DNA from: a virus
Taxonomy: Duplodnaviria > Heunggongvirae > Uroviricota > Caudoviricetes
Reading direction: 5' to 3' (one strand)
Virus record (IMG/VR): IMGVR_UViG_2706794664_000004
DNA length: 27,702 bases
Of the stretch, positions 7,433-27,702 are shown in pieces; the stretch's first letter is position 1, and each line of letters opens with the position of its first letter. A program made the translations under genes and the position numbers. The notes below the pieces were generated by a model. That model saw only the letters and a list, made by a program, of their open reading frames with translations, made no database searches and was not told where the DNA came from.

Positions 7433-7504
7433 AATGTGAAGATATTCAGAATTTTTATGCCATTACCGGTTTTAACCAACAGGATTATCGGTGGGCATGA
7501 AAGA

Positions 7505-7540
7505 AAACCCCGGTATCTGCTGATACCGGGGTTTCTCTTT
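7505..7540. terminator. strong hairpin, possible bidirectional terminator or insulator
   Basis: Perfect 13-bp stem AAACCCCGGTATC (7505-7517) / GATACCGGGGTTT (7522-7534) with 4-nt loop TGCT; T-rich on both flanks. Confidence 0.45.
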
Positions 7541-7637
7541 AGCATGGCAGAAATGTGTTTCATGCTTTTCGGGCGAAGGATATCCGACTTCTGTACGGAA
7601 TGGCAAGTGGCGGTTAATTTATTCAGGGGAAGGCTGT

Positions 7638-11089: not shown

Positions 11090-11107
11090 ATTTTATAACC
11101 CATATAC

Positions 11108-11135
11108 GGGCGCCAGAAATGGCGCCTTTTTTATT
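11108..11135 (+). terminator. rho-independent terminator after J
   Basis: GGCGCC (11109-11114), loop AGAAAT, GGCGCC (11121-11126), followed by TTTTTTATT. Confidence 0.65.
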
Positions 11136-11156
11136 GCAGAAAAGCGAGAGGTAATT

Positions 11157-11760: not shown

Positions 11761-11864
11761 CAACAGACGCCGATTTATCTTCTGTAAATATTGTTATGAT
11801 ACGCAGGTTCATCCACCTTATGGGGTGAACTGCGTTTGAGGAAACGTAAAGTTACACTGTCCTG

Positions 11865-11900
11865 AAGCCCGTGGCGTCACTGCTGCGGGCTTTTTTTATT
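11865..11900 (+). terminator. rho-independent terminator after lom
   Basis: Stem AAGCCCG (11865-11871) / CGGGCTT (11886-11892), then TTTTTTTATT (11891-11900). Confidence 0.6.
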
Positions 11901-11911
11901 GGTGGAAAAGT

Positions 11912-14539: not shown

Positions 14540-14689
14540 ACCATGAAGAAAGGCGTGATGTATGAAAAATCAGGCCATGTAATCACGGGGCTTGGTATTA
14601 TCGGTGAAGTCGATGGTGATGATCCGGCAGTATTCAGACCAATACAAAAGTTAATTAACGGAACATGGTATAACGTATCGCAGGTATAA
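14540..14689 (+). other. displaced C-terminal 49 codons of stf cassette v1, downstream of the in-frame amber
   Basis: Same frame as stf reads [49 protein letters not shown] (TAA 14687-14689), homologous to the C-termini of cassettes v2, v3, v4 (...RPIQ..INGTWYNxxSx*). Confidence 0.75.
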
Positions 14690-14691
14690 TC

Positions 14692-15225
14692 ATGCAGCAT
14701 TTAAAAAACATTGTCGCAGGTAATCCAAAAACCGTTGAACAATACCAGCTAACAAAGAATTTTGATGTTATCTGGTTATGGTCCGAAGATGGAAAAAATT
14801 GGCATGAGGAATTAAAAAACTTTCAGGAGGATACAATAAAACTGGCTTACACAGTTGAGGGAATAATTATTGCTATAGACAAGGATGTATCAGCAATTAA
14901 TCCAGAAGGTTTAAGTGTCGTTGAGTTGCCTGATATTACAGCAAATCGCCGGGCTGATATTTCGGGCAACTGGATGTTCAAAGATGGTGCGGTGATAAAG
15001 CGAACTTATACCGAGGAAGAGCAAAGGCAACAAGCGGAAAATGAAAAGCAGAGCCTGCTGCAGCTCGTCAGGGATAAAACCCAGCTGTGGGACTCTCAGC
15101 TACAGCTGGGCATCATTTCCGATGAGAATAAACAAAAATTAACCGAGTGGATGCTCTATGCGCAGAAGGTTGAATCCACAGACACCTCCAGCCTGCCAGT
15201 AACGTTTCCCGAACAACCAGAATGA
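14692..15225 (+). CDS. tfa: tail fibre assembly protein Tfa (partner of cassette v1)
   Basis: 177-aa [43 protein letters not shown]...[10 protein letters not shown]...; Tfa-family motifs; immediately after the fibre C-terminus. Confidence 0.85.
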
Positions 15226-15300
15226 GAGAAGGCCCGCTATCGGGCCTTAATTTTTATTCAGGCTTTTGTGGCCATTCAGGATTTGCCGTATCCACACGGC
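14929..15300. repeat. direct repeat copy 1 (tfa 3' half plus shared terminator plus 3' end of minus-strand tfa)
   Basis: About 370 bp, roughly 90% identical by eye to 17998-18369 (for example cctgatattacagcaaatcgccgggctgatattt... and aaggcccgctatcgggccttaatttttattcaggcttttgtggccattc). Confidence 0.8.
15229..15258. terminator. bidirectional intrinsic terminator between convergent tfa genes
   Basis: AAGGCCCG-CTAT-CGGGCCTT followed by AATTTTTATT; sits between the + tfa stop (15225) and the minus tfa stop (15254). Confidence 0.6.
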
Positions 15301-15781
15301 TGACCAGAACACTGTAGCGTTCCCATGCTTCCAGTCGTGTGCGTTCCTCGTCTGTTGCCATATTCAGCCTGACAGCGCGTTCCAGCGGCTGGATGACTGA
15401 TTCAGCTTCGGAAAGCAATGCGGCCTTTTGTGATTCGGCCTGTTGTTGCTGTTCGTCAGCCGTATAAATCCGTTTAACCACAGCTCCGTCCTTAAACATC
15501 CACTTACCGGAATCATCAGCACGACGATTAGCTGTAATATCAGGAACTTCAACTATGCTTAGCCCTTCAGGATTAATAGTTGAAACGTCTTTACTGACAG
15601 CAACGATGATGTTGTTCTCATCGTAAGCAATTTTTATGGTGTCTGGCTGAAAATTCTTTTGTTCCTCATACCAGTTTTTGCCATCTTCGCAAAAGAGCCA
15701 TACCACGCCCGCTTTTTTAGTTAGCTGGTATTGTTCCGGTGTTTTCGGATTCCCGGCCTTAATATTTTTCAGGTGCATCAT
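15254..15781 (-). CDS. tfa: tail fibre assembly protein Tfa (partner of cassette v2)
   Basis: Minus-strand ORF; likely start at ATGATG 15776-15781 ([23 protein letters not shown]...) preceded by SD GGGGAG; ORF track begins 12 codons further upstream. C-terminus ...[14 protein letters not shown]. Confidence 0.8.
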
Positions 15782-15782
15782 C

Positions 15783-16696
15783 TTAAACACTCCCCACGTT
15801 GTACCATATTCCCCCAATCAATTTCTGAATTGGCCTTCTGGCAACAGTGTCGACAATATCATCCGCATTGCTGTTAATTGCGGCTGTTAAAACATAACCT
15901 GACGCATCGCCAAAGCCGTAGTCGCGCCATACGTTTTTATATTCAATGCTGCCAAGACGAATATCCCGAACGACATGATTATGCAGCCATGTGCTTAACC
16001 AGTTGTTTTCCCACACTGAACCATAAATATCGCCACTAGACGCAACTTGCGCACCACTTCCCAGCGCAAATCCCCCATCTGTTTTAAAAATGAAATCACC
16101 ACCACCATCTGAACCGTTATTAATATGAACACCATCACCACCGTTATCTTTCCACAAAAACATACGAATTCTTCCGTCTTCGTTGGCGAATGTAATGTGG
16201 TGGCGGTAATTACTTTTTAATCTAAAATTGCTGCCATTAGATTCAATATCTTTATAAAGATGTAATCCTAACTCATCAATATGTCCGATACGCGAACCAT
16301 TTGAATAGAAGCTAATAATACCATCTCCATCTTGCCTAAATCCGGTGTCGTTATCTCCCAGAACAATGGAGTTTTCACCCAGTGCGTTATCAGTAGCTCC
16401 AATAGCTAGACCTCCTTTAATTTTGGCCCCGTGGCTGACAGATATAGCACCTGTTCTCAGATTTATAGCGAATGGCCTTAATGGGCCGATATTACCGTTT
16501 TCGCCTTGTCCTTCAGCCGTCGGAATGAAATGAAGAAAATCTTCTGAACGACGGAAAATTAGACCGAAGGTATCATTGAAAATTCGCAGCGCATTCACCG
16601 TGCCAATTTTCAGTTCTCCGGTCATTTTATCGCCGGAACGCTGAACGGCGTTACCAGCCTTGTTTACCGTTTCCTGTAAACCGAGGTATTCGATAA
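15783..16696 (-). CDS. silent alternative tail-fibre C-terminal cassette v2 (no own start; 5' end is crossover site B)
   Basis: Minus-strand frame reads [41 protein letters not shown]...[18 protein letters not shown]; first 8 residues identical to the Stf junction peptide; upstream is N-run. Confidence 0.75.
16671..16696 (-). other. invertase crossover site B (inverted relative to site A)
   Basis: + strand TTCCTGTAAACC-GA-GGTATTCGATAA; reverse complement TTATCGAATACCTCGGTTTACAGGAA. Confidence 0.7.
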
Positions 16697-16981
16697 CGGC
16701 NNNNNNNNNNNNNNNNNNNNNNNNNNNNNNNNNNNNNNNNNNNNNNNNNNNNNNNNNNNNNNNNNNNNNNNNNNNNNNNNNNNNNNNNNNNNNNNNNNNN
16801 NNNNNNNNNNNNNNNNNNNNNNNNNNNNNNNNNNNNNNNNNNNNNNNNNNNNNNNNNNNNNNNNNNNNNNNNNNNNNNNNNNNNNNNNNNNNNNNNNNNN
16901 NNNNNNNNNNNNNNNNNNNNNNNNNNNNNNNNNNNNNNNNNNNNNNNNNNNNNNNNNNNNNNNNNNNNNNNNNNNNNNNNG

Positions 16982-17758
16982 GAGAGTCAGGGAGCATTTA
17001 ACCATCCTTACTGGATGTGCAAAGGCTCATGGGCTTATGCAAATAATAAGGTCATTACAGATACAGGTTGCGGAAATATTTGTCTTGCAGGTGCTGTGGT
17101 GGAAGTTATTGGCACTCGCGGCGCAATGACCATACGCGTTACCACGCCGAGCACGTCCAGCGGTGGCGGAATTACTAACGCTCAATTCACTTATATTAAT
17201 CATGGTGATGCTTACGCTCCTGGCTGGCGACGAGACTACAACACGAAAAATCAACAACCTGCATTTGCTTTAGGGCAAACAGGAAGCACTGTCGGAAATG
17301 ATAAAGCTGTTGGCTGGAACTGGAATAGCGGGGTCTATAACGCAAACATTGGTGGCGCATCGACATTAATCCTCCACTTCAATATGAATACGGGGAGCTG
17401 CCCTGCTGTACAGTTCCGCGTGAATTACAGGAACGGCGGTATTTTTTATCGTTCAGCGCGTGATGGTTATGGCTTTGAAGCTGACTGGTCAGAGTTTTAC
17501 ACCACAACCCGCAAACCCTCTGCGGGAGATGTTGGTGCATATACGCAGGCAGAATGTAACTCAAGGTTTATTACAGGTATTCGCCTTGGTGGTCTGTTAT
17601 CTGTTCAGACATGGAATGGTCCCGGATGGTCTGACAGGTCAGGTTATGTTGTTACCGGTTCCGTTAACTCAAACAGAGATGAACTAATTGATACAACTCA
17701 GGCAAGGCCAATTCAGTATTGCATTAATGGGACGTGGTATAACGCGGGGAGTATTTAA
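16982..17758 (+). CDS. alternative tail-fibre C-terminal cassette v3 (+ orientation; 5' end and presumed crossover site inside N-run)
   Basis: Open frame from 16982 (ESQGAFNHPYWMCKGSWAYANN...) to TAA 17756-17758. Central module AFALGQTGSTVGNDKAVGWNWNSGVYNANIGGASTLILHFNMNTGSCPAVQFRVNYRNGGIFYRSARDGYGFEADWSEFYTT is about 85% identical to stf v1; C-terminus RPIQYCINGTWYNAGSI. Confidence 0.75.
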   Translation, partial: ESQGAFNHPYWMCKGSWAYANNKVITDTGCGNICLAGAVVEVIGTRGAMTIRVTTPSTSSGGGITNAQFTYINHGDAYAPGWRRDYNTKNQQPAFALGQTGSTVGNDKAVGWNWNSGVYNANIGGASTLILHFNMNTGSCPAVQFRVNYRNGGIFYRSARDGYGFEADWSEFYTTTRKPSAGDVGAYTQAECNSRFITGIRLGGLLSVQTWNGPGWSDRSGYVVTGSVNSNRDELIDTTQARPIQYCINGTWYNAGSI

Positions 17759-17760
17759 CG

Positions 17761-18294
17761 ATGATGCACTTAAAAAACATTTCTGCTGGTAATCCTGAAA
17801 CAAAAGAGCAATACCAGCTAACGAAACAATTTAACATCAAATGGCTTTATACAGAGGATGGGAAAAACTGGTATGAGGAACAAAAGAACTTTCAGCCTGA
17901 TACGTTGAAAATGGTCTATGACCACAACGGCGTTATTATTTGTATTGAAAAGGATGTTTCAGCAATTAATCCGGAAGGCGCAAGCGTCGTTGAGGTTCCT
18001 GATATTACAGCAAATCGCCGGGCTGATATTTCAGGTAAATGGATGTTCAAAGATGGCGTAGTGATAAAGCGAACTTATACCGGGGAAGAGCAGAGGCAAC
18101 AAGCGGAAAATGAAAAGCAAAGCCTGCTACAGCTCGTCAGGGATAAAACCCAGCTATGGGACTCACAGCTACGGCTGGGCATTATTTCCGACGAGAATAA
18201 ACAAAAATTAACCGAGTGGATGCTCTATGCGCAGAAGGTCGAATCCACAGACACCTCCAGCCTGCCAGTAACGTTTCCCGAACAACCAGAATGA
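17761..18294 (+). CDS. tfa: tail fibre assembly protein Tfa (partner of cassette v3)
   Basis: 177-aa [43 protein letters not shown]...; C-terminal half near-identical to the tfa at 14692-15225. Confidence 0.85.
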   Translation: MMHLKNISAGNPETKEQYQLTKQFNIKWLYTEDGKNWYEEQKNFQPDTLKMVYDHNGVIICIEKDVSAINPEGASVVEVPDITANRRADISGKWMFKDGVVIKRTYTGEEQRQQAENEKQSLLQLVRDKTQLWDSQLRLGIISDENKQKLTEWMLYAQKVESTDTSSLPVTFPEQPE

Positions 18295-18369
18295 AACAAG
18301 GCCCGATATCGGGCCTTAATTTTTACTCAGGCTTTTGTGGCCATTCTGGCTTTGCCGTATCCACACGGC
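17998..18369. repeat. direct repeat copy 2 (paralogous to 14929-15300)
   Basis: See copy 1; ends at N-run 18370. Confidence 0.8.
18298..18327. terminator. bidirectional intrinsic terminator between convergent tfa genes (paralogue of 15229-15258)
   Basis: AAGGCCCG-ATAT-CGGGCCTT followed by AATTTTTACT. Confidence 0.6.
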
Positions 18370-18910
18370 NNNNNNNNNNNNNNNNNNNNNNNNNNNNNNN
18401 NNNNNNNNNNNNNNNNNNNNNNNNNNNNNNNNNNNNNNNNNNNNNNNNNNNNNNNNNNNNNNNNNNNNNNNNNNNNNNNNNNNNNNNNNNNNNNNNNNNN
18501 NNNNNNNNNNNNNNNNNNNNNNNNNNNNNNNNNNNNNNNNNNNNNNNNNNNNNNNNNNNNNNNNNNNNNNNNNNNNNNNNNNNNNNNNNNNNNNNNNNNN
18601 NNNNNNNNNNNNNNNNNNNNNNNNNNNNNNNNNNNNNNNNNNNNNNNGCCCGGCGATTTGCTGTAATATCAGGAACCTCAACGACGCTATAACCTTCAGG
18701 GTTAAGCGTGGAGGCATCTTTGGTGATGGCGACAATAATATTATTTGCATCGTAAACAATCTTTATTGTGTCTGGCTGAAAGTTCTTCACTTCCTCATAC
18801 CAGTTTTTTCCGTCCTCAGAGTAAAGCCAGATGACTCCGTGCTTCTTTGTTAACTCATACTGCTCCACTGTTTTAGCATTACCTGCTTTTATGTTCTTTA
18901 AGTGCATCAT
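18323..18910 (-). CDS. tfa: tail fibre assembly protein Tfa (partner of cassette v4); middle hidden in N-run
   Basis: Minus-strand ORF, likely start ATGATG 18905-18910 ([40 protein letters not shown]...), C-terminus [14 protein letters not shown]. Confidence 0.75.
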
Positions 18911-18911
18911 A

Positions 18912-19940
18912 TTAAATACTCGCCACATTATACCAAGTGCCATTTATATACTTTTGCACTGGCCTGTAATGAACGCCTGCAATATTATCGGCAGAGTTTT
19001 TTCCGGTATCCTGTACGTTAATCCCCGTCAGTACATAGCCTGACGGGCACTGAAAATTCCATGTTTGCCAGTTGTTCACTCCATAATATTGCTGTGAACC
19101 AAGTCGAACATCTTTCACATATCTGGAATCAAAATTGCCATAGTTGCCGGGAATAACTTGCGAGCCGCAAAGCCAGTTCCCGTTATTATCCATGTACGCC
19201 TGACCATCGGTGCCATTGGCTGTCCTTGAGTTATTAATCATGTAGATGCCAAATTGCTTATTTCCCAGACCGCCAATCATAAATTTGCGGTCGGCATGGT
19301 CCTGACGGAGCAAAGCCTGAGCACCATCAGTGGATACCGCATTACGTCCCAAAATAACATTCTGGTCACGCATATGAATCCACATGCCGGTACTACTGTT
19401 AATTGCAAAACGGTTTGCAAATATATCCCCTGTAACATCAAGACCATGCCCCATGCTTATCCGGCCAGTTCTGAGATTAAGCGTAAAGGGGCGTAGTGGC
19501 CCTATATTACCATTTTCCCCTTCATTCTCTCGTGTAGGGATGATATGCAGGCATTCTTCAGAACGACGAAAAATGGCACCAAAAGATGAATTAAATATCC
19601 TCAGTGCATTGACTGTCGATATTTTCACTTCACTGCTGAAAAGGGCTTCAACAAGAACAGACAAAGCATTCCATTTAAGATTCATCAGGTCTTTAGGCCG
19701 GGTGCCAATGATGCGGTGTCTCCATTTGAAATATTCATTGCCGTTGTTGCCTGTTTCAAACCACATGTAGGAATCGGTGTCTGCATCCGAATTATTTTTA
19801 AACCCAATCTTTGCCCAGTCAGTATTTCGAATCCAGGCAAGGATTGAGTCGTTTTCAAAAGTAAGTCCACCGGACAACGTATCGCCATTTTTTTGCACGG
19901 CGTTACCAGCCTTGTTTACCGTTTCCTGTAAACCGAGGTT
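18912..19940 (-). CDS. silent alternative tail-fibre C-terminal cassette v4 (no own start; reaches into crossover site C)
   Basis: Minus frame reads [31 protein letters not shown]...[18 protein letters not shown]; an in-frame TAA (+ 19941-19943) lies just upstream, so it is only translated after fusion to stf. ORF track starts at internal Met (19898). Confidence 0.75.
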
Positions 19941-19948
19941 TTAGATAA
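19923..19948 (-). other. invertase crossover site C (gix-like, next to the invertase gene)
   Basis: + strand TTCCTGTAAACC-GA-GGTTTTAGATAA, one mismatch from Mu gixL as I recall it; same orientation as site B, inverted relative to site A. Confidence 0.75.
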
Positions 19949-20002
19949 TGGCCGTTTCCGGCCTGCATGGCATGATTTGCGCTTTTGGACGGGAGATTCA
20001 GC

Positions 20003-20590
20003 GTGCTGATTGGCTATGTAAGGGTATCAACAAATGACCAGAATACAGACCTGCAACGAAACGCTCTTGTTTGTGCAGGATGTGAACAAATATTTGAAGA
20101 TAAATTAAGCGGGACAAAGACAGACCGACCGGGATTAAAACGCGCTTTAAAGCGCCTTCAAAAAGGTGACACGCTGGTTGTCTGGAAACTGGATCGCCTC
20201 GGGCGAAGCATGAAACATCTGATTTCTCTCGTCGGGGAACTACGGGAGCGAGGAATTAATTTTCGCAGTCTGACCGACAGCATAGATACATCTTCTCCAA
20301 TGGGGCGTTTTTTCTTCCACGTGATGGGTGCCCTGGCTGAAATGGAACGTGAATTAATTGTTGAACGTACACTGGCCGGACTGGCGGCAGCACGCGCACG
20401 GGGGCGCACAGGCGGACGTCGACCGAAGCTGACAAAAGAACAGCATGAGCAAATAGCAAGGCTGATCAAAAACGGGCACGACAGAAAACAACTGGCAATA
20501 ATTTACGGCATTGGTATATCGACGATTTATCGTTACCACCCCGCAGGAGAATCAATCGGAACAATAGAGAAGAGTCAGGAAACAAAATAA
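20003..20590 (+). CDS. pin: site-specific DNA invertase, serine recombinase of the Pin/Gin/Hin/Cin family
   Basis: GTG 20003 with SD GGGAGA 6 nt upstream; VLIGYVRVSTNDQNTDLQRNALVCAGCEQIFEDKLSGTKTDRPGLKRALKRLQKGDTLVVWKLDRLGRSMKHLISLVGELRERGINFRSLTDSIDTSSPMGRFFFHVMGALAEMERELIVERT... is near-identical to E. coli Pin from memory; catalytic Ser in YVRVST. ORF track extends 6 codons upstream to TTG 19985. Confidence 0.9.
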   Translation: MLIGYVRVSTNDQNTDLQRNALVCAGCEQIFEDKLSGTKTDRPGLKRALKRLQKGDTLVVWKLDRLGRSMKHLISLVGELRERGINFRSLTDSIDTSSPMGRFFFHVMGALAEMERELIVERTLAGLAAARARGRTGGRRPKLTKEQHEQIARLIKNGHDRKQLAIIYGIGISTIYRYHPAGESIGTIEKSQETK

Positions 20591-20620
20591 CCGCTAATCT
20601 GACCATTAGCGGTTTTTGTG
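20591..20620. terminator. bidirectional intrinsic terminator between pin (+) and P2-like U (-)
   Basis: CCGCTAAT-CTGACC-ATTAGCGG followed by TTTTTGTG; T-rich on the opposite flank as well. Confidence 0.6.
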
Positions 20621-20625
20621 TTAAA

Positions 20626-21120
20626 TCAGAACAACCCTTTAACTGAACTGGCCGCGCTGTTAAGGGATGATGTTACCTTATCTTTGAAGCCGGACAGCAT
20701 ATCGCTGAACGATGAGGATTGCAGGCGCTCCCGCAAATCCTCATCACAGCGTTCAAGAGTCAGTGAAAATTCTATCTTTTTCGCCTTACCGTAGCGATCA
20801 AACTCGGAGCGGGTCGTATTCGTTTCGGTCAGGACATACATGCCGTAAATCTGCCCGACGCCATCAATCAGAGGCCAGGGTCGTCCTGTATACGCCTGCG
20901 TGGTCAGCAGCGACAGCGACACTTCGCCACCTGTAATTTCAGGATAAAGCACACCAGAAAGAACGATGCGCTCATCACCTGCACCGATATACTGCCAGCT
21001 TGCCGAACGGTTAACGCGTTCATTTTTCACATGCCGCCAGCTTTTGTTTTGCTGTAACTGCTGATGCGGCAATGTACGCAGCTCAAAAACAAACATGCCG
21101 TAGATCATCATCATGGCCAT
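20626..21120 (-). CDS. U: P2 gpU-like tail protein
   Basis: 164-aa minus ORF MAMMMIYGMFVFELRTLPHQQLQQNKSWRHVKNERV...GVLYPEITGGEVSLSLL...KKIEFSLTLERCDED..., SD GAGGAG; position after tape measure as in P2. Confidence 0.8.
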   Translation of the reverse strand: MAMMMIYGMFVFELRTLPHQQLQQNKSWRHVKNERVNRSASWQYIGAGDERIVLSGVLYPEITGGEVSLSLLTTQAYTGRPWPLIDGVGQIYGMYVLTETNTTRSEFDRYGKAKKIEFSLTLERCDEDLRERLQSSSFSDMLSGFKDKVTSSLNSAASSVKGLF

Positions 21121-21126
21121 GACTCC

Positions 21127-23910
21127 TCAATCTTTATCGTAAAAACTGCCACGCCCGGCACGGGCGCGCCGTTCCATTTCTGCCCTGACCATTTCACCGA
21201 CCAGTTTCGCCAGTTCGCGGGGATTCTGCGTAACAACGTTATGCAGATGAACATGAATTTCACCACCAAATCCGGAGGCAACAGGCTCCCGGTTACGGGA
21301 AGTTACAGGAACTGATGCCACTGGAGAGCGTATGGCCTCCGCCACCGGGCGGGAGCTGGCCGCAACAACAGGGACCAGCGCCGGAGGCAGCGGAGCCGGG
21401 ACCACGGGTGTGATATTAATTGCGGGGGCAGGCTTACTGACCTGCGCAATCTTCCGCTCCTGCCACTCCCCACGAACAGCAAGTGCGCGGGGCAGGTTCT
21501 TAAAGACAATATCGCCGGGGCCAATGCGTTTTTTCGTCTCATCAACCAGCTTACCTGTGTTATCAGCAATTTTGCTGAGTCTGCGTAGCGTCCCGGTATT
21601 GCTGTCTGTGAGCGGTTTGTTGTCTTTGGGTTTATCACCTCCGGTGCCATTGCCATTTTCCACAGGCTTCGGCGGATTGATTTTCGCCAGGTCCCCCTGA
21701 AGCAAGGCAACCTTGTCCTGAAGAATGGCCGCACGCTGTGCGTCTTCGATTTTCTTGCGCGCCCTTTCCGCTTCATCCGGAAGGACGCCAAGTTTTTCAA
21801 GTATCCACGCCAGCGTATCCAGTAGCATTTTTGCAGGTGTCAGAACAAGTTGTAACGCACCGCCAAGAACGTTACCGAATATCTCGCCAGCACTGGCACA
21901 TTTATCCAGCGTTTCCTTGCTGGACTCCATCGGTGACAGCAGCGATTTAAACCAGTTAAAGACCTGAATAATCCCATCGCGCACGACATCAAAAACAGGG
22001 CCAAACCGTTCAAAGGTTTCGCGCAACGGGGTCAGCCTTTCCATAATCCCGCTGAACACCCCGGCAAAAAATGCCCTGATGGGATCCCAGTATTTCCAGA
22101 TAAGAACGGCAGCTCCGGCAAGCGCAGCCACGATAAGACTAACCGGACTGAACAGCGCCCCGATAGCGCCACCAAGTAAAGAAACGGAACCCGTCACCAT
22201 TCCCCATAATGCAGGCAGAACCCTGACAACATTCATTGATTCGGTCAGGAGAGAAAAACCGAGACGCAACGTAGCCAGCTTCCCGTGAAGCACCCCAATA
22301 ACCAGAGACAACGAACCAACCGTTGCTGTTGTCGCCAGCAGTGCGCCTCCCGCTATCAGTAACTGGCGCGTCAGTGCCGGGTGGGCCTGCGCCAGCGCCG
22401 TCACCTTTGAGACAACCCGCGTGAGCCACTGCGTGACAGAACGCAGCGGACCGTCAACCAGATCACTGATGCGAATACGCAGACCTTCCCATGCACTGCC
22501 GAGTGATTTCAGGTTGCCATCAAGGTTATTGGCCATAACCTTTGCCGTGCGTTCTGCCTCACCGCGCGCGCCTTCAAGTTCTTTTCTCAGTTTGGCTAAG
22601 AAGCCGTCACCTGCCGCATCAACGAGGCCCATAAATGATGTGAAAGCCTCTTCTCCGGCAATGTCCTTAAAGAACGATACCCGGTCAACCTCCCCGTATT
22701 TGCGGGTGGCTTTATAGAGATCGGCCAGCACATTCTCCATCGGGCGCATTTTGCCTTTGGCGTCAGCAACTGACACCCCCAGCTCTTTCAGTGCTTCTGC
22801 CGCTGCCTTTGGCGGTGATGACAGATTGGCCAGGCTTTTACGCAACGCTGTACCTGCATCACTCCCCCTGATACCCATCTTCGCCAGCACGCCCGCCATC
22901 GCTGCGGCCTGCTCCAGCGATATTCCCAGCTTACCCGCCACCGGACCTGCATATTTCATGGTTTCGCCCAGTGCGCGAAGGTCAGTGTTGGTACGGGTAA
23001 ACGCTGCGGTAAGTGTGTCACCGACCCGGTCCATCTGGTCAGCAGAGAGGCCGAACTGCGTCAGGATATTGGAACCAATATCCGCCGTCTCGCCGAGGTC
23101 CATACCGCCAGCCGTTGCCATGCTCAGCACGCCGGGAAGCGCAGCCTGAATGGCCTGCGGTGTGAAACCAGCCATTGCAAGAAATGCCTGTCCACTGGCG
23201 GCATCGCCTGCGGTGAACTGCGTTTCAGAGCCAAGTTTTAACGCCTGCTCACGCAGCGCCTTAAACTGCGGGCTGTTTTTATCGATTCGCGTCAGTGCCT
23301 GAACACGGGACATCTCTTTCCCGAACCCGATAGCGGGCTGCAAAAAACGCCCGGCAGCATAGCCGCCCGCTGCCGCCGCACCTGTTGCCAGCGCACCACC
23401 TGTTTTCAGTTNNNNNNNNNNNNNNNNNNNNNNNNNNNNNNNNNNNNNNNNNNNNNNNNNNNNNNNNNNNNNNNNNNNNNNNNNNNNNNNNNNNNNNNNN
23501 NNNNNNNNNNNNNNNNNNNNNNNNNNNNNNNNNNNNNNNNNNNNNNNNNNNNNNNNNNNNNNNNNNNNNNNNNNNNNNNNNNNNNNNNNNNNNNNNNNNN
23601 NNNNNNNNNNNNNNNNNNNNNNNNNNNNNNNNNNNNNNNNNNNNNNNNNNNNNNNNNNNNNNNNNNNNNNNNNNNNNNNNNNNNNNNNNNNNNNNNNNNN
23701 NNNNNNNNNNATCAGCTTTTGTTGTTTTTCGCTGAGCACTGTACCCGTGCGTTGTAACTGATTAAGGGCGTTAAGCTGGCGTCGTGCTTTCACGATGCCC
23801 GCATCCGCTTTACTGACAGCGTCACGGGCGCGCTCAAATGAACGCGCCTGACGCTCGAGATTTTTGATCGCCCCCTGCGTTCGCTGGATGGAGTCACCAA
23901 ACTGCCCCAT
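21127..23910 (-). CDS. T: tail tape measure protein (P2 gpT-like); part hidden in N-run
   Basis: 927-aa minus ORF, N-terminal coiled-coil-like MGQFGDSIQRTQGAIKNLERQARSFERARDAV..., Gly/Ala-rich hydrophobic segments (LKTGGALATGAAAAGGYAAG...), length and position typical of a myovirus tape measure. Confidence 0.85.
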   Translation of the reverse strand: MGQFGDSIQRTQGAIKNLERQARSFERARDAVSKADAGIVKARRQLNALNQLQRTGTVLSEKQQKLXXXXXXXXXXXXXXXXXXXXXXXXXXXXXXXXXXXXXXXXXXXXXXXXXXXXXXXXXXXXXXXXXXXXXXXXXXXXXXXXXXXXXXXXXXXXXXXXXXXXXLKTGGALATGAAAAGGYAAGRFLQPAIGFGKEMSRVQALTRIDKNSPQFKALREQALKLGSETQFTAGDAASGQAFLAMAGFTPQAIQAALPGVLSMATAGGMDLGETADIGSNILTQFGLSADQMDRVGDTLTAAFTRTNTDLRALGETMKYAGPVAGKLGISLEQAAAMAGVLAKMGIRGSDAGTALRKSLANLSSPPKAAAEALKELGVSVADAKGKMRPMENVLADLYKATRKYGEVDRVSFFKDIAGEEAFTSFMGLVDAAGDGFLAKLRKELEGARGEAERTAKVMANNLDGNLKSLGSAWEGLRIRISDLVDGPLRSVTQWLTRVVSKVTALAQAHPALTRQLLIAGGALLATTATVGSLSLVIGVLHGKLATLRLGFSLLTESMNVVRVLPALWGMVTGSVSLLGGAIGALFSPVSLIVAALAGAAVLIWKYWDPIRAFFAGVFSGIMERLTPLRETFERFGPVFDVVRDGIIQVFNWFKSLLSPMESSKETLDKCASAGEIFGNVLGGALQLVLTPAKMLLDTLAWILEKLGVLPDEAERARKKIEDAQRAAILQDKVALLQGDLAKINPPKPVENGNGTGGDKPKDNKPLTDSNTGTLRRLSKIADNTGKLVDETKKRIGPGDIVFKNLPRALAVRGEWQERKIAQVSKPAPAINITPVVPAPLPPALVPVVAASSRPVAEAIRSPVASVPVTSRNREPVASGFGGEIHVHLHNVVTQNPRELAKLVGEMVRAEMERRARAGRGSFYDKD

Positions 23911-23939
23911 CAGGCGGCGGGCGTTTTCGGCAGGCCGGG

Positions 23940-24449
23940 TCAGCCTGTCAACGGCGCTGAAAGCGACCCGGATATCAAGAGTCNNNNNNNNNNNNNNNNN
24001 NNNNNNNNNNNNNNNNNNNNNNNNNNNNNNNNNNNNNNNNNNNNNNNNNNNNNNNNNNNNNNNNNNNNNNNNNNNNNNNNNNNNNNNNNNNNNNNNNNNN
24101 NNNNNNNNNNNNNNNNNNNNNNNNNNNNNNNNNNNNNNNNNNNNNNNNNNNNNNNNNNNNNNNNNNNNNNNNNNNNNNNNNNNNNNNNNNNNNNNNNNNN
24201 NNNNNGTCGCGGTGATGTCACGCGTGACAGCAGCGTAAACATGGATTCCGCTTTCAAATTCAGCACATCAGACAGCGACAAATCTCGCAGAGATCCAGCC
24301 TGCTCAATAGCCCCGGTGATCTCCACATACGTGATTTTTTCGCCGCCTCGCTCAATTGGTTGGGTAAGTTTTACGCCACGCTCACTGGTTTCTTTCACAG
24401 TGTCAGCAACGACCGTGTTTTCGGTATCGATGTTTTTCGTCTCTTTCAT
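23940..24449 (-). CDS. E: tail assembly chaperone (P2 gpE/E+E'-like); 3' two-thirds inside N-run, end approximate
   Basis: Visible N-terminus MKETKNIDTENTVVADTVKETSERGVKLTQPIERGGEKITYVEITGAIEQAGSLRDLSLSDVL..., SD AAAGGAG; small gene between tube and tape measure as in P2. Confidence 0.6.
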   Translation of the reverse strand: MKETKNIDTENTVVADTVKETSERGVKLTQPIERGGEKITYVEITGAIEQAGSLRDLSLSDVLNLKAESMFTLLSRVTSPRXXXXXXXXXXXXXXXXXXXXXXXXXXXXXXXXXXXXXXXXXXXXXXXXXXXXXXXXXXXXXXXXXXXXXXXXXXXLLISGSLSAPLTG

Positions 24450-24503
24450 CAGGAAACTCCTTTCAGTCAGAGGCGACGCACTGCGCCGCCTGCATATTAC
24501 TTA

Positions 24504-25016
24504 TCAGCCAAGCCCGAGCGCGGAACGGATGCGATCGGGCACAATGTCCCTGCCGTCCTTCCGGTAAATGAAGTTCAGCAGGTCAATCTCCCACAACGGG
24601 CGATCGTTAACACTCAGCTTGTAGTAGGTGTTTTTAATGGCGTAAGTGTGTGATGTGGCTTCGCCCTGTTTGGCTTCCCCCATATCAATTTCCGTCACAC
24701 GTCCGCGCATTTCGACTTCATACAGGTCGCTTTCAGCGTCGGTGTAGTATTCACCCGCAAAACGCAGCAGCGTACCGTCAATCGTGCCGCCATACTTAAG
24801 GAACAGCTCACGAACTGCGCCCCCCATGACAAAGCTCGCATCAAGCGCGGAGTCATCCAGGCCGAGATCAATACTTACCGCTCCCATCATGCCACCACCC
24901 CGGTAGCTGTCGGTTTTGCGCGTCAGCTTAGGCAGAGTGACGGACGTCACCTTACCCACTTCGTTTTCACCATCCACAAACAGCGTAAAAAAGCGAAGAT
25001 GTTTTGGTACAGCCAT
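24504..25016 (-). CDS. FII: tail tube protein (P2 gpFII-like)
   Basis: 170-aa minus ORF MAVPKHLRFFTLFVDGENEVGKVTSVTLPKLTRKTDSYRGGGMMGAVSIDLGLDD...; start overlaps FI stop (ATGA). Confidence 0.85.
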   Translation of the reverse strand: MAVPKHLRFFTLFVDGENEVGKVTSVTLPKLTRKTDSYRGGGMMGAVSIDLGLDDSALDASFVMGGAVRELFLKYGGTIDGTLLRFAGEYYTDAESDLYEVEMRGRVTEIDMGEAKQGEATSHTYAIKNTYYKLSVNDRPLWEIDLLNFIYRKDGRDIVPDRIRSALGLG

Positions 25017-26200
25017 CAGGCACCTCCCAGCACCGCAAATGCGGGACCAAAGAATTCATCAGTAAACGACTGGTAAAGCTCCATGTCTTCCAGCGGGGGA
25101 ACAGGCGTATATTTGTAGCGAATACGCACGCGCCCCTGACGTAAATTCGTGGTGCCGTTATCCACCACGTCATACCAGCACGACGCCCCAATCAGTTTCC
25201 CGGCAGTAACCAGTGAATCCAGTTTTGCCCTGATGGCACCGATAACATCCTTCACGTTCGCAGGCGTCAGTGGACTGTCGATGGTTTCAAACTGCGCTTC
25301 CGCAATTGAATCAGCCAGCACCTGTGCGGTTCGGGTATACACCTCAAAGATGTAGGCGTTCGTTTCCGGTGTGCGGTTGCCCCAGAAGCGGAACCCGTTG
25401 CGACGAATAATGGTCGTGATTTCTTTGTTGTTGAGGCTGTTGGCATCACTGTCTTCGGCCTGCAACGACCAGAACACATGCCTGGACATCCCCAGCACAT
25501 TTTTAACCGGAACGTTGGACAGCGATTTGTGCCAGCCCTGCTCATGGTCAATGTACGCACGAAGGCCGCACGCATAGGCAGGCGCGGGGAACGTTTCGTT
25601 TTTGCCACTTTTCGGGTTGTAGGCGATGAAGTCCGGCCATAAGAGCATCACCTCACGTTCGTTGAATTTCTGGCGGTAGGTAATTGCCTCAGCCATCGTG
25701 TTACAGTCATGACATGAGGCATACACAAACGCGCGCAGTTTACCCGCAATCACGCACAGGGATTTTGTCACCGCCTCCGTGTCCAGCTCCGGCGCGGCCA
25801 GAATACGCGGACGGTATCCGATGCTTTCATCCTGCTCTGCAACAAGCAGCGCATACATCCCCGTATAGCTGCCGTCAGATTCAGAACCACCGATAACCAG
25901 TTGATCCTGCGTTTTTCCGTCTTCTTCTTTGTGTTCAGCCACGCGAACGACGATCACCTTTGTGCTCACCTGGTCTGCGATGGCCTTAAGCGCACGATAA
26001 AGCGTCCCCGTTGTTCCGCATTTTCCCAGCACGTCATTGACGCGGGGCAGCAGTGTGGGCTTGTTCAGCGGGAACAGCTCCGCGTCCGCATCATCCGCCG
26101 TTGCCACGATACCGATAACGCTGGAATCAACATCGTTAATCGCTGTTACCAGGTCGGTATTTTCCGTAACACGGGCACCATGAAAACGAGTTTCACTCAT
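25016..26200 (-). CDS. FI: contractile tail sheath protein (P2 gpFI-like)
   Basis: 394-aa minus ORF with motifs shared with P2 FI from memory (AELFPLNKP, KLRAF, WPDF, IDHEQGWHKSLSNV, IRRNGFRFWGNRT, YTRTAQV, YTPVPPLE); SD AAGGGG. Confidence 0.9.
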   Translation of the reverse strand: MSETRFHGARVTENTDLVTAINDVDSSVIGIVATADDADAELFPLNKPTLLPRVNDVLGKCGTTGTLYRALKAIADQVSTKVIVVRVAEHKEEDGKTQDQLVIGGSESDGSYTGMYALLVAEQDESIGYRPRILAAPELDTEAVTKSLCVIAGKLRAFVYASCHDCNTMAEAITYRQKFNEREVMLLWPDFIAYNPKSGKNETFPAPAYACGLRAYIDHEQGWHKSLSNVPVKNVLGMSRHVFWSLQAEDSDANSLNNKEITTIIRRNGFRFWGNRTPETNAYIFEVYTRTAQVLADSIAEAQFETIDSPLTPANVKDVIGAIRAKLDSLVTAGKLIGASCWYDVVDNGTTNLRQGRVRIRYKYTPVPPLEDMELYQSFTDEFFGPAFAVLGGA

Positions 26201-26357
26201 AGCTTCAACCCCTTGTATCCGTTAAATGATTCGGCAACAATCATCACCCACCACGCGCGTAATCTCACCCCTGCGCCATTCTCCCGCCACGGCGACAACA
26301 AAAAGCAGTAACCCCCTCCGCACGCACATGCGACCATGCCACACAGGGAGGGAGCAG

Positions 26358-27467
26358 ATGACCGACACCACCATGCAATTGCTCAGTCAGGGCACAGACC
26401 CCGTGAAAATGCCGGATTTTGATATTCTCGCGGAGGGTAAAACGCTGTCAGGCGTGGCAGAGCGCCTGATGAGCCTGTCACTGACCGACAACCGGGGATT
26501 TGAGGCGGACCAGCTCACCATCACGCTGGATGATGCGGATGGTCAGTTGCAGCTACCGCCACGGGGCGCGCGCCTGACGGTTCTCATTGGCTGGAAGGGA
26601 GAACCGCTGACAGAAAAAGGCACTTACATTGTTGATGAAATCGCTCACGAAGGACCGCCGGACAGGCTGACTGTTTCAGCCAGAAGCGCAGATTTTCGGG
26701 CTGAATTTAACGTTAAACGTGAGGTGTCCTGGCATGATGTGACCGTTGAGCGTGTGGTATCCGCCATCGCTCATCGGTATGGTCTGAAACCGCAAATCAG
26801 CGAAATGCTGATGGATATCGAAATCGACCACGCCGACCAGACCGAAGAAAGCGACATGTCCTTCCTTACGCGCATGGCGGAAATGCTGGGCGCAATCACC
26901 ACGGTAAAAAGCGGTAATCTGTTATTCATCATGCCCGGTGGTGGCGTGAACGCACAGGGCCAGCCGTTGCCCTCGTTCGCCATCACACGCAGCAGCGGCG
27001 ATCGCCATCAGTTCCGCATTGCTGACCGCGAAGCGTATACGGGGGTACGCGCTTACTGGCTTGATCTTAATTACGGGAAAAAGAAAAAAGTCAGCGTGAA
27101 ACGCCGCAAACCGTCAAAACCAAAAAAGGAGAAAAGCAGCAGCCGGGAAGGCGACTATATGGAAGGTGCGGAAGGCAACGTGTTTGTGTTACGCAAAACT
27201 TATCAGAACGAGCAGGCAGCAAGACGTGCAGCGGCGGCAAAGTGGCAGCAGCTACAACGCGGAGCCGCATCATTCTCCATCACACTGGCGCATGGACGTG
27301 CAGAACTCTACCCCGAAATGCATGGCACGGTAACAGGATTTAAAAGCGAGATTGATAATCAGGACTGGATTATTGCAAAAGCCGAGCACACCATTGATAA
27401 CAGCGGCTTTACCACGCAGCTTGAGCTTGAGGCAAAAATCCCGGAATGGATAGCAGAAACAGAGTGA
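26358..27467 (+). CDS. D: P2 gpD-like tail protein (Phage_GPD family)
   Basis: ATG 26358 preceded by SD GGAGGGAG; MTDTTMQLLSQGTDPVKMPDFDILAEGKTLSGVAERLMSLSLTDNRGFEADQLTITLDDADGQLQLPPRGARLTVLIGWKG...; ORF track starts 44 codons upstream without SD. Confidence 0.75.
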   Translation: MTDTTMQLLSQGTDPVKMPDFDILAEGKTLSGVAERLMSLSLTDNRGFEADQLTITLDDADGQLQLPPRGARLTVLIGWKGEPLTEKGTYIVDEIAHEGPPDRLTVSARSADFRAEFNVKREVSWHDVTVERVVSAIAHRYGLKPQISEMLMDIEIDHADQTEESDMSFLTRMAEMLGAITTVKSGNLLFIMPGGGVNAQGQPLPSFAITRSSGDRHQFRIADREAYTGVRAYWLDLNYGKKKKVSVKRRKPSKPKKEKSSSREGDYMEGAEGNVFVLRKTYQNEQAARRAAAAKWQQLQRGAASFSITLAHGRAELYPEMHGTVTGFKSEIDNQDWIIAKAEHTIDNSGFTTQLELEAKIPEWIAETE

Positions 27468-27616
27468 GCAACTTAAATGTATTAACTCAGAACGGATCAA
27501 CACACTCACAACATAGAGTCAATATAGCTGCTCGCTTTGTTCCAGCAAGGATGCCTATTTCTAAGGAAAAACAGAGCAGAAACATATGGTGTTTTCCTAC
27601 CTGACATCAGGGGTGG

Positions 27617-27702
27617 TAGACTGGCCCCCTGAATCTCCAGACAACCAGTATCACTTAAATAAGTGATAGTCTTAATACTAGTTTTTAGACTAGTCATTGG
27701 AG
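27617..27702 (+). mobile_element. left end of insertion sequence IS2 (only 86 bp in window)
   Basis: TAGACTGGCCCCCTGAATCTCCAGACAACCAGTATCACTTAAATAAGTGATAGTCTTAATACTAGTTTTTAGACTAGTCATTGGAG matches the IS2 left terminus from memory; the insC start would lie just beyond the window. Confidence 0.8.

What the first reader, a model, noticed from the sequence alone, without database searches (positions are those of the whole stretch)
20626..27467. P2-like tail block (FI-FII-E-T-U) inverted relative to gpD and placed next to a lambda-like tail module
Established: in P2 and relatives FI, FII, E, T, U and D form one co-directional operon. Seen: here U, T, E, FII, FI are on the minus strand (20626-26200) and the gpD-like gene is divergent on the + strand (26358-27467), as expected if the FI-U block had inverted in place. 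The block abuts pin and the invertible fibre locus on the left and IS2 on the right; no P2-like baseplate or fibre genes flank FI. Inference: an ancient inversion or a modular recombinant joining siphovirus-type and myovirus-type tail modules; a tailocin-like remnant is also possible. I found no gix-like site at either border, so Pin involvement is unsupported.
Basis: partly seen in the sequence, partly recalled or inferred. Interest (0 to 1): 0.5.

Follow-up and report, generated by a model that had tools for sequence, protein, structure and literature searches.

The report
Normal gene order of P88-like phages
The "inverted" tail-gene block is real, but it is the normal, conserved gene order of a large branch of P2-like phages (phage P88 and relatives) that form plaques, so it is ordinary; its apparent position next to lambda-type tail genes is probably an assembly artefact.

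Summary
Observation confirmed. U, T, E/E', FII and FI lie on the minus strand (20626-26200). gpD lies on the plus strand (26358-27467). A Gin/Pin-type invertase is on the left and an IS2 end on the right.

This is not a local rearrangement. The same order occurs at 95-96% identity in plaque-forming phage P88 (Xuanwuvirus). It also occurs in Citrobacter phiSM, in Salmonella SEN5, and collinearly in 1101 of 5426 complete E. coli genomes.

In 80 loci from GTDB species-representative genomes, all 48 with gpD at least 61% identical to the window have the divergent order. All 32 with gpD at most 54% identical have the P2 order or a cut part of it. The divergent set is monophyletic in gpD and FI trees (100/100 bootstraps). 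This indicates one old inversion, now fixed.

Inferred mechanism: the 157-bp FI/D spacer holds one P2-type activator dyad (TGT-N12-ACA; 26280-26297). A -10-like hexamer starts exactly 43.5 nt from the dyad centre on each side. P2's own pP/pO pair shares one activator site in the same way.

Pin is not involved. The N runs are scaffold gaps, the lambdoid join crosses two of them, and a sister assembly carries P88-type H and I genes. The siphovirus/myovirus "hybrid" is therefore probably mis-scaffolding.

The parts
19923..19948 (+). gix-like crossover site next to the invertase gene. It is the right boundary of the invertible tail-fibre segment.
   Evidence: Exact match to the gix-like 26-mer. 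It pairs as an inverted repeat with 13751-13780 (I14). No such site lies at 20591-20625 or 26201-26357.
20003..20590 (+). Gin/Pin/Cin-family serine DNA invertase
   Evidence: Pfam Resolvase 1e-50 plus HTH_7. The 5' part is 92-96% identical to gin of Mu and D108. The same position is annotated 'DNA invertase' in P88.
20589..20614 (.). Hairpin with T runs on both strands, between the convergent invertase and U genes. It looks like a bidirectional intrinsic terminator.
   Evidence: Found on both strands by the terminator scan: 10-bp stem, 6-nt loop. A crude scan found a terminator-like hairpin downstream of U in 28 of 45 clade loci.
20626..21120 (-). gpU (tail protein)
   Evidence: Pfam Phage_P2_GpU, E 8e-39. 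ORF.
21127..23910 (-). gpT tape measure protein, interrupted by scaffold gap 23412-23710
   Evidence: Pfam PhageMin_Tail, E 1e-57. Annotated as tape measure in P88 and ETEC4090.
23922..24449 (-). gpE and gpE' (tail assembly chaperone pair). The middle is hidden by scaffold gap 23984-24205.
   Evidence: By position and 98% nucleotide identity to the 'GpE family' and 'tail protein' genes of ETEC4090 and P88. The visible N-terminal 81 aa gave no Pfam hit.
24504..25016 (-). gpFII tail tube
   Evidence: Pfam Phage_tube, E 2e-46.
25016..26200 (-). gpFI tail sheath
   Evidence: Pfam Phage_sheath_1, Gp18_domIII_N and Phage_sheath_1C.
26240..26245 (-). Predicted -10 hexamer (GATGAT) of the leftward late promoter P_F. 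The predicted start site is near 26233.
   Evidence: A hexamer with A at position 2 and T at position 6 starts 43.5 nt from the dyad centre on this side in 40 of 40 non-identical clade loci. The geometry matches pF of P2-type loci (81% at 43.5 nt; P2 annotation).
26280..26297 (.). P2-type late-activator (Ogr/Delta/B-type) binding dyad, TCTCCCGCCACGGCGACA. It has one mismatch to TGT-N12-ACA.
   Evidence: A dyad with at most one mismatch lies 66-80 nt from the FI start codon in 47 of 50 clade loci and is conserved in the alignment. The P2 record annotates activator sites at pF and at pO/pP.
26332..26337 (+). Predicted -10 hexamer (GACCAT) of a rightward promoter P_D. The predicted start site is near 26344, about 14 nt before the gpD start codon.
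   Evidence: A hexamer with A2 and T6 starts 43.5 nt from the dyad centre on the D side in 90% of 40 loci. On the corresponding side of collinear P2-type loci the figure is 10%, which is background.
26358..27467 (+). gpD (baseplate hub / 'late control D')
   Evidence: Pfam Phage_GPD, E 4e-17. 99% identical to P88 gpD and 52% to P2 gpD.
27617..27702 (+). Left end of an IS2 (IS3-family) copy, inserted in the D-ogr spacer. The contig ends inside it.
   Evidence: 100% identity to O111-type prophages stops at 27618. The remainder is multi-copy in E. coli and annotated as an IS3-family transposase in 13KWH46. The name IS2 rests on my memory of its terminal sequence.
16701..16980 (.). Scaffold gap (N run) that carries the apparent join between the lambdoid fibre contig and the P88-type invertible segment
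   Evidence: N runs are listed. They do not preserve length (299 N against 245 bp, and 222 N against 277 bp, in L009). The contig piece to the left ends exactly at the gix-like site 16671-16700.

Best explanation
Window 19923-27616 is the right arm of an ordinary P88-like (Xuanwuvirus-type) P2-family prophage.

**Normal gene order.** In this branch of the family the order is: baseplate genes V W J I, fibre genes H G, an optional invertible fibre cassette with its invertase, then U-T-E'-E-FII-FI on the opposite strand, then D and ogr on the first strand again. This differs from P2 by a single old inversion of the segment that holds promoter pF plus genes FI to U. The inversion became fixed at the base of a deep clade, and the clade's phages are viable.

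**Inferred mechanism.** The inversion split P2's single F operon into two divergent late units. Both are driven from the 157-bp FI/D spacer. One dyad-symmetric activator site (TGT-N12-ACA type, 26280-26297) lies about 55 bp upstream of a leftward start for FI-U and of a rightward start for D. P2's own divergent pP/pO pair is built the same way. The FI-U unit ends at a two-way hairpin terminator that it shares with the convergent invertase gene.

**State of this copy.** The invertase acts only on the fibre segment, not on the tail block. IS2 has inserted just after D, and the contig ends there. The lambda-type tail genes to the left most likely belong to a separate prophage. Scaffolding probably joined them here through the fibre/gix/invertase repeats that both prophage types carry.
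For: **The order is normal and functional (shown).**
- It is identical in P88 at 96% identity. P88 forms plaques, with a burst size of about 65 (PMC5285337).
- phiSM is 95% identical and forms plaques.
- The SEN5 record shows it.
- Complete prophages of ETEC4090 and O111 RM9322 have it, with the full head, baseplate and fibre set.
- 1101 of 5426 complete E. coli genomes hold at least 80% of 20000-27702 collinearly.
- All 80 IMG/VR loci with a close gpD show FI(-)/D(+).

**One old event (shown).**
- All 48 loci with gpD at least 61% identical, from more than 20 genera of Enterobacterales, are divergent.
- All 32 loci with gpD at most 54% identical show the P2 order or a cut part of it, and none is divergent.
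- The divergent set is monophyletic in gpD and FI neighbour-joining trees, 100/100 bootstraps.

**Not Pin, and not switching (shown).**
- No gix-like site or inverted repeat lies at the borders.
- Most clade members lack an invertase.
- A synthetic flipped-back junction matched 0 of 5426 genomes.

**Promoter model (inferred from conservation).**
- The dyad sits at a fixed distance from FI in 47 of 50 loci.
- -10-like hexamers start exactly 43.5 nt from the dyad centre on the FI side in 100% of 40 non-identical loci and on the D side in 90%. No other offset exceeds 30%.
- Collinear P2-type loci have the hexamer only on the FI side.
- The P2 record annotates one activator site for both pO and pP, with start sites 56 and 55 nt either side of it.

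**Scaffolding (shown and inferred).**
- The N runs are gaps of estimated size.
- The join lies at the gix-like site that ends a contig piece.
- 0 of 5426 genomes join the lambdoid and P88 parts.
- Lambdoid prophages naturally end in stf-tfa-tfa'-stf'-pin.
- Sister scaffold L257 is 100% identical from the gix site through U to FI; D and the same IS2 junction were checked on L009, from the same contig. L257 has P88-type H and I beyond a lambdoid piece bounded by single-N joins.
Against: - No transcription data were available. The two start sites and their dependence on an Ogr-type activator are predictions.
- The window's dyad has one mismatch (TCT for TGT), and its D-side hexamer GACCAT matches the consensus at only 3 of 6 positions.
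- The 40 loci are related by descent, so conservation at a fixed distance is not 40 independent observations.
- The trees were rooted on P2. The collinear sample is limited to the relatives closest to this gpD.
- ogr is not in the window.
- For this particular genome I could not see the other contigs. A real lambdoid/P88 fusion is therefore not excluded, and three related assemblies all link the two regions, though each does so through N joins.
Confidence: 0.85

Rival explanations
1. A genuine hybrid element. A lambdoid prophage and a P88-like prophage recombined within their shared invertible fibre/gix/invertase module, either by invertase action at gix sites or by homologous recombination. 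This would leave lambda-type tail genes physically fused to the P88 right arm.
For: - Both prophage types carry homologous fibre constant regions, tfa cassettes, gix sites and invertase genes. Homology to the lambdoid type runs 2938-20193 and to the P88 type 13281-27478.
- The apparent junction coincides with a gix-like site.
- Scaffolds of three related strains all link the two regions.
Against: - Every link passes through N gaps or single-N joins.
- The gix-like sites flanking 16701-19922 are in direct orientation, which is not how an invertible segment is built.
- The sister scaffold has P88-type H and I genes.
- No complete E. coli genome shows the fusion.
Confidence: 0.2
2. A recent or ongoing in-place inversion of the FI-U block in this strain, for example one catalysed by the adjacent Pin/Gin-type invertase. 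The block would then exist in two orientations.
For: The invertase gene lies directly next to the block. One IMG/VR locus (L082) has a rearranged pin-U-T piece.
Against: - No gix-like site or inverted repeat lies at either border.
- The same orientation is seen in all 80 close IMG/VR loci, in 1101 complete genomes, and in 48 loci from species-representative genomes, most of which lack an invertase.
- The flipped-back junction is absent from 5426 genomes.
- Both spacers carry conserved signals suited to this orientation: a terminator and paired promoters.
Confidence: 0.02
3. A domesticated tailocin-like remnant. Only sheath, tube, tape measure, U and D would be kept, as part of an R-type bacteriocin or other contractile device.
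For: The window shows the tail core genes without P2-type baseplate, head or lysis genes. P2-derived tailocins exist in related bacteria, for example xenorhabdicin (PMC13280938).
Against: - The block is 95-96% identical to whole, inducible phages.
- A sister assembly with a 100% identical block has P88-type H and I genes.
- The absence of other genes is explained by the contig end in IS2 and by the scaffold gaps.
- The described xenorhabdicin locus places its variable fibre region next to the sheath gene, which fits the collinear order rather than this one.
Confidence: 0.04

Closest known systems
Escherichia phage P88 (Xuanwuvirus P88, Peduoviridae; NC_026014 / KP063541), its close relatives (P884B11, 520873, 500465-2, PhiR44_2, Chuche) and Citrobacter phage phiSM
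   Same: - 93-96% nucleotide identity over 19900-27500.
- Same genes, order and strands: invertase(+), U T E' E FII FI (-), D(+).
- Same FI/D spacer, with the dyad and both hexamers.
   Different: - The window lacks ogr, hok and everything beyond because IS2 and the contig end follow D.
- Upstream, the window shows lambda-type tail genes instead of P88's V W J I H G. This is probably mis-scaffolding.
- The state of the invertible cassettes differs from P88: segment 16981-19922 is flipped relative to P88.
Bacteriophage P2 F operon (FI FII E E' T U D, promoter pF) and P2-like phages with an invertase but collinear order (Peduovirus magyaro KC618326; Fels-2)
   Same: - Same seven gene families; gpD is 52% identical.
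- Same pF architecture: a dyad about 83 nt upstream of the FI start codon and a -10 hexamer 43.5-44.5 nt from the dyad centre.
- KC618326 and Fels-2 also have the invertase between the fibre genes and the tail genes.
   Different: - In P2, KC618326 and Fels-2, FI to D are co-directional, U overlaps D, and D has no promoter of its own.
- Here pF-FI...U is flipped, and D has its own ribosome-binding site and a predicted promoter.
P2 divergent late promoters pP/pO, which share one activator-binding site
   Same: One dyad site lies midway between two divergent late transcription units, about 55 nt from each start. In the P2 record the site is 3057-3087 and the starts are at 3016(-) and 3127(+). 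Here the dyad centre is 26288.5, with -10 hexamers 43.5 nt away on each side.
   Different: The genes served differ: FI-U and D instead of P-Q and O-S. For pP/pO the start sites are annotated in the P2 record; here they are only predicted.
Gin/Pin/Cin/Hin invertible tail-fibre segments (Mu G, P1 C, e14 P)
   Same: The neighbouring locus (13751-19952) is of this kind. It has gix-like sites, alternative fibre C-termini with tfa genes, and an adjacent invertase 92-96% identical to Mu gin in its 5' part.
   Different: The FI-U block itself is not such a segment. It has no crossover sites at its borders, no alternative orientation has been found, and it is inverted in clade members that have no invertase.

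Membership tests
P2-family (Peduoviridae) tail core cluster FI-FII-E/E'-T-U-D | Presence of sheath, tube, tape measure, gpU and gpD homologues | tested here: met
   Pfam hits above the curated cut-offs for all five.
P2-family (Peduoviridae) tail core cluster FI-FII-E/E'-T-U-D | gpE/gpE' chaperone pair with a programmed -1 frameshift upstream of T | tested here: inconclusive
   The region 23984-24205 is a scaffold gap. The flanks are 98-100% identical to relatives that annotate GpE and E'. The visible part gave no Pfam hit.
P2-family (Peduoviridae) tail core cluster FI-FII-E/E'-T-U-D | All seven genes co-directional in one pF operon, as in P2 | tested here: not met
   FI to U are on the minus strand and D on the plus strand. 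This is the feature that separates the P88 clade from P2.
P88-like clade (Xuanwuvirus and allies: divergent FI/D order) | High nucleotide identity to P88 across the invertase-to-D region | tested here: met
   96.4% identity over 93% of 19900-27500.
P88-like clade (Xuanwuvirus and allies: divergent FI/D order) | U-T-E-FII-FI antiparallel to D, with a spacer of about 125-200 bp carrying the dyad | tested here: met
   The spacer is 157 bp and the dyad is at 26280-26297. The same holds in 47 of 50 clade loci.
P88-like clade (Xuanwuvirus and allies: divergent FI/D order) | Complete phage genome (head, lysis, baseplate, fibre, ogr, replication, integrase genes) around the block | not testable with these tools
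   The window is the whole contig (27702 bp), and other contigs of the assembly could not be read. A sister scaffold has P88-type I and H genes.
Gin/Pin-type invertible DNA segment (as an explanation of the FI-U inversion) | Inverted crossover (gix/pix-type) sites at both borders of the segment | tested here: not met
   Searches with the 26-mer (up to 3 mismatches) and the core AAACCNNGGTTT (up to 1 mismatch) find sites only at 13751-13780, 16671-16700 and 19923-19952. No inverted repeat flanks the block.
Gin/Pin-type invertible DNA segment (as an explanation of the FI-U inversion) | Both orientations present among closely related genomes | tested here: not met
   0 of 5426 complete E. coli genomes carry the flipped-back junction. 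All 80 close IMG/VR loci have one orientation.
P2 pP/pO-type bidirectional late promoter with a shared activator site | Dyad TGT-N12-ACA between the divergent genes | tested here: met
   TCTCCCGCCACGGCGACA, with one mismatch. The match is perfect in 28 of the 50 clade loci.
P2 pP/pO-type bidirectional late promoter with a shared activator site | Promoter elements placed so that the dyad centre is about -55 from both start sites | tested here: met
   -10-like hexamers start 43.5 nt from the centre on both sides, in 100% and 90% of 40 loci. The collinear control is one-sided.
P2 pP/pO-type bidirectional late promoter with a shared activator site | Transcription from both promoters depends on the Ogr/Delta/B-type activator | not testable with these tools
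   This needs transcript mapping or reporter assays. An ogr/Delta-like gene follows D in relatives but is not in the window.
R-type tailocin | Tail, baseplate, fibre and lysis genes present, with head, packaging and replication genes lost | not testable with these tools
   The window shows only the core tail genes.

The most novel reading that the evidence does not exclude
The old inversion created a second bidirectional late promoter in this phage lineage. A single Ogr-type dyad, placed exactly midway between the two -10 elements (43.5 nt to each), would co-activate FI-U leftward and D rightward. D, which in P2 is the translationally coupled last gene of the F operon, would thereby become an independently transcribed late gene. 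This would be an undescribed instance of the pP/pO design. It would also be a clean natural example of operon splitting by inversion followed by the gain of a mirror-image promoter, conserved across more than 20 enterobacterial genera.
Probability: 0.6. Interest if true: 0.3.

Novelty: already known. Interest (0 to 1): 0.15.

Why it matters
**For annotation.**
- A divergent FI/D pair next to an invertase should not be flagged as a rearrangement, a hybrid, or a tailocin remnant. It is the signature of the P88-like lineage, which is present in about a fifth of complete E. coli genomes.
- Short-read scaffolds can falsely fuse different prophages at the fibre, gix and invertase repeats that unrelated phages share.

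**For biology.** The point of modest interest is regulatory. If the shared-dyad model holds, this lineage shows how an operon can be split by an inversion and remain co-regulated, by reusing a symmetric activator site for a new mirror-image promoter.

Tried and rejected
1. **Exact TGT-N12-ACA in the FI/D spacer.** There is none in the window. The site emerged only from comparison with relatives, and has one mismatch.
2. **Sigma-70 consensus scan.** It gave nothing useful in the spacer. Activator-dependent promoters match the consensus poorly.
3. **Pin-mediated inversion.** No sites lie at the borders and no alternative orientation was found.
4. **My recollection that Fels-2 has this order.** It is wrong; Fels-2 is collinear.
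5. **Looking for the lambdoid+P88 fusion in closed genomes.** It is absent. The D/IS2 junction is also absent from complete E. coli genomes, so no closed genome of this exact lineage was available.
6. **Using related IMG/VR contigs to confirm the fusion.** They turned out to be N-joined scaffolds themselves.
7. **First tree script.** It timed out and was rerun with a faster distance measure.
8. **Literature.** Searches for 'Xuanwuvirus', for 'phage P88' with 'P2-like', and for P2-like with inverted, late promoter and ogr found no paper that discusses the inverted block or an FI/D promoter. The P88 paper does not contain the words 'invert' or 'inversion'.
9. **Terminator after U across the clade.** It was only moderately supported by a crude scan, in 28 of 45 loci.
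Full report
**What the window is.** The window is the entire 27,702-bp record CWSV01000046.1 of assembly GCA_001255555.1. It contains nine N runs of 222-299 bases. These are scaffold gaps of estimated size, not length-preserving masks. In a sister assembly that is otherwise 100% identical, the stretches corresponding to 299 and 222 N measure 245 and 277 bp. The window is therefore ten contig pieces joined by scaffolding. This matters for the claim about neighbouring genes.

**Checking the observation.**
- U: 20626-21120 (-)
- T: 21127-23910 (-)
- E/E': about 23922-24449 (-), partly in a gap
- FII: 24504-25016 (-)
- FI: 25016-26200 (-)
- gpD: 26358-27467 (+)

Pfam confirms GpU, tape measure, tube, sheath and GPD. 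It also identifies the left neighbour (20003-20590) as a resolvase-family invertase. After D the sequence runs into the end of an IS3-family element. I recognise it as IS2; it is multi-copy in E. coli and annotated as an IS3-family transposase elsewhere.

No site and no significant inverted repeat lies at either border of the FI-U block.

**The arrangement is a normal phage gene order.** The region 19900-27500 is 96% identical to Escherichia phage P88 (genus Xuanwuvirus), and 93-95% identical to several other phage records and to Citrobacter phage phiSM. The P88 map shows invertase(+), then U, T, E', E, FII and FI on the other strand, then D(+). Upstream lies the full P2-type set of head, lysis, baseplate (V W J I) and fibre (H G) genes.

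P88 is a working phage. It was induced, forms plaques and has a burst of about 65 (PMC5285337). phiSM forms plaques and lysogenises K-12 (PMC6456863).

Complete prophages in E. coli ETEC4090 and O111 RM9322 have the same order. The O111 prophage has no invertase at all; a serine O-acetyltransferase gene occupies that position. In total, 1101 of 5426 complete E. coli genomes contain at least 80% of window 20000-27702 in one collinear place. All 80 IMG/VR loci with a close gpD have FI(-)/D(+).

**How old and how widespread it is.** I scanned one genome per GTDB species with a gpD alignment and mapped FI, FII, T, U, D, ogr and gene I on the 80 best loci. The result is a clean split:
- All 48 loci whose gpD is at least 61% identical to the window's have the divergent order. 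They come from more than 20 genera of Enterobacterales, including Salmonella, Edwardsiella, Serratia, Erwinia, Pantoea, Enterobacter, Kosakonia, Citrobacter, Klebsiella, Pectobacterium, Brenneria, Xenorhabdus, Photorhabdus, Providencia, Morganella, Hafnia and Yersinia.
- All 32 loci with gpD at most 54% identical show the P2 order or a cut part of it. None is divergent.

In neighbour-joining trees of gpD and of FI (74 sequences, rooted on P2), the divergent loci form one group in 100 of 100 bootstrap replicates. Salmonella phage SEN5 (Senquatrovirus) belongs to the divergent group. P2, the P2-like phage KC618326 and Fels-2 are collinear, although the last two also carry an invertase between the fibre and tail genes.

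The simplest reading is one inversion of the segment pF-FI...U, fixed at the base of a deep lineage. A synthetic flipped-back junction (invertase 3' end joined to pF-FI) matched none of the 5426 genomes. I found no evidence of switching.

**How it most likely works (inferred).** In P2, one promoter (pF) drives FI through D, and U overlaps D. After the inversion D needs its own expression signals.

Aligning the FI/D spacers of diverse clade members shows a conserved P2-type activator dyad, TGT-N12-ACA. It starts 66-80 nt from the FI start codon in 47 of 50 loci. In the window it is TCTCCCGCCACGGCGACA at 26280-26297, with one mismatch. In P2 the annotated pF activator site lies about 83 nt from FI, the same geometry.

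I then scored -10-like hexamers at every distance from the dyad centre in 40 non-identical loci. A hexamer with the two critical bases (A2 and T6) starts exactly 43.5 nt from the centre on both sides:
- on the FI side in 100% of loci;
- on the D side in 90% of loci;
- at no other offset in more than 30%.

With the hexamer at -12 to -7, the dyad centre falls at -55.5 for both directions. As a control, 21 collinear P2-type loci have the hexamer at 43.5 nt on the FI side (81%) but only background (10%) on the other side.

In the window the elements are:
- GATGAT at 26245-26240 on the minus strand, with a predicted start near 26233;
- GACCAT at 26332-26337 on the plus strand, with a predicted start near 26344, about 14 nt before the gpD start codon and its GGGAGGGAG ribosome-binding site.

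The design is not new in kind. The P2 record annotates a single 'activator binding site; pO, pP promoters' at 3057-3087, with start sites at 3016(-) and 3127(+), 56 and 55 nt either side of its centre. I therefore propose that the FI/D spacer is a second pP/pO-type bidirectional late promoter.

At the other end of the block, a hairpin with T runs on both strands (20589-20614) sits between the convergent U and invertase genes. Comparable hairpins follow U in 28 of 45 relatives by a crude scan. None of these transcription signals has been tested experimentally, and I found no paper that discusses them.

**The neighbouring lambda-type tail genes.** The left 13 kb of the window encodes a lambda-type tail module ending in a side-tail-fibre gene at 11912-14539. 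Lambdoid prophages of this kind naturally end in stf, tfa, an inverted tfa'/stf' pair and a (here truncated) pin gene, for example in E. coli NCTC86. P88-like phages carry a homologous module between H and U.

In complete genomes, homology to the lambdoid type spans window 2938-20193 and homology to the P88 type spans 13281-27478. No complete genome joins the two.

Three observations on the window itself bear on the join:
- The lambdoid contig piece ends exactly at the gix-like site 16671-16700 and is followed by a gap.
- The next two pieces (16981-18369 and 18648-23411) are collinear with P88's invertible segment in flipped orientation.
- The two gix-like sites that would flank this segment in the scaffold are in direct orientation. 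An invertible segment is not built that way.

A sister assembly (IMG 2695420708, contig 13) is 100% identical to the window from the gix site through D, including the same IS2 junction. In it, the lambdoid piece is bounded by single-N joins on both sides. Beyond it lie P88-type H and gene I, about 94-96% identical to P88. Another related assembly also links the regions only through an N join.

I conclude that this lineage carries an ordinary P88-like prophage and a separate lambdoid prophage, and that scaffolding confused them at shared repeats. I put about 0.7 on this, because the other contigs of this genome could not be read. A real fusion at the shared module remains possible (about 0.2).

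**Other readings.** Pin-mediated or recent inversion is essentially excluded, as shown above. A tailocin remnant is not supported, for two reasons. The block is nearly identical to whole phages. The missing genes are explained by the contig end and the scaffold gaps. The published xenorhabdicin locus has its variable fibre region next to the sheath gene, which fits the collinear order (PMC13280938).

**Verdict.** It is the gene order of the P88-like lineage and not an anomaly. The one point of modest new interest is the inferred shared-dyad bidirectional promoter in the FI/D spacer, which is testable by transcript mapping. Interest is low (0.15).

Noticed in passing
window 13751-19952: The tail-fibre locus shows three gix-like sites: 13751-13780 inverted, and 16671-16700 and 19923-19952 direct. 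It also holds four alternative fibre C-terminal/tfa cassettes. This would be a multi-inversion system if real, but it spans two scaffold gaps and probably merges the invertible segments of two different prophages.
   Followed up: partly
window 2664-2937, 4699-4994, 5048-5297, 6531-6804, 11344-11594, 16701-16980, 18370-18647, 23412-23710, 23984-24205: The nine N runs are scaffold gaps of estimated length, not masks of real length. One 53-bp island (4995-5047) sits between two gaps.
   Followed up: yes
window 7911-11089: The lambda-type J gene (tail tip) is split into two overlapping ORFs, 7911-9554 and 9548-11089. This is either a frameshift pseudogene or a sequencing error.
   Followed up: no
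L169 (NZ_JBQPOM010000071.1, 'Vagococcus sp. WN89Y'): A genome labelled as a Firmicute carries a P88-type block whose gpD is 98% identical to the window's. This is likely enterobacterial contamination or a mislabelled assembly.
   Followed up: no
Citrobacter phage phiSM (OR565851; PMC6456863): The paper describes phiSM by electron microscopy as having a long non-contractile, siphovirus-type tail. Yet its genome record is 95% identical to this block, including the sheath and tube genes.
   Followed up: no
L001 26669-27469, L167 19368-20168, L259 9679-10473 (equivalent to window 26358-27467): RefSeq annotation of P88-type prophages calls gpD a protein of about 265 aa ('VgrG/Pvc8 family') from an internal start, and adds a short antisense pseudogene. 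The full ORF is 366-369 aa with a strong ribosome-binding site.
   Followed up: partly
window 27468-27616; L167 20169-22139; L259 10474-11600: The spacer between D and ogr is a cargo hot spot in this lineage. It holds a PIN-domain gene in O111 RM9322, an HxsABC cluster plus an IS in 13KWH46, and IS2 in the window. The spacer between G and U is another: it holds an invertase cassette in some members and a serine O-acetyltransferase in others.
   Followed up: partly
L082 (IMGVR_UViG_2654587728_000014) 428-7053: One related contig has a more diverged copy (86-90% identity) of invertase, U and the 3' part of T. It is in inverted orientation, with a breakpoint inside T at about window 22605. This is a single rearranged, presumably defective prophage.
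   Followed up: partly
L090 11840-14953; L008 1579-1764: Related lambdoid contigs show the segment 13781-16670 in the opposite orientation, or end in a hairpin-like repeat of the fibre constant region. This is as expected if both orientations of the invertible segment were present in the sequenced cultures.
   Followed up: no
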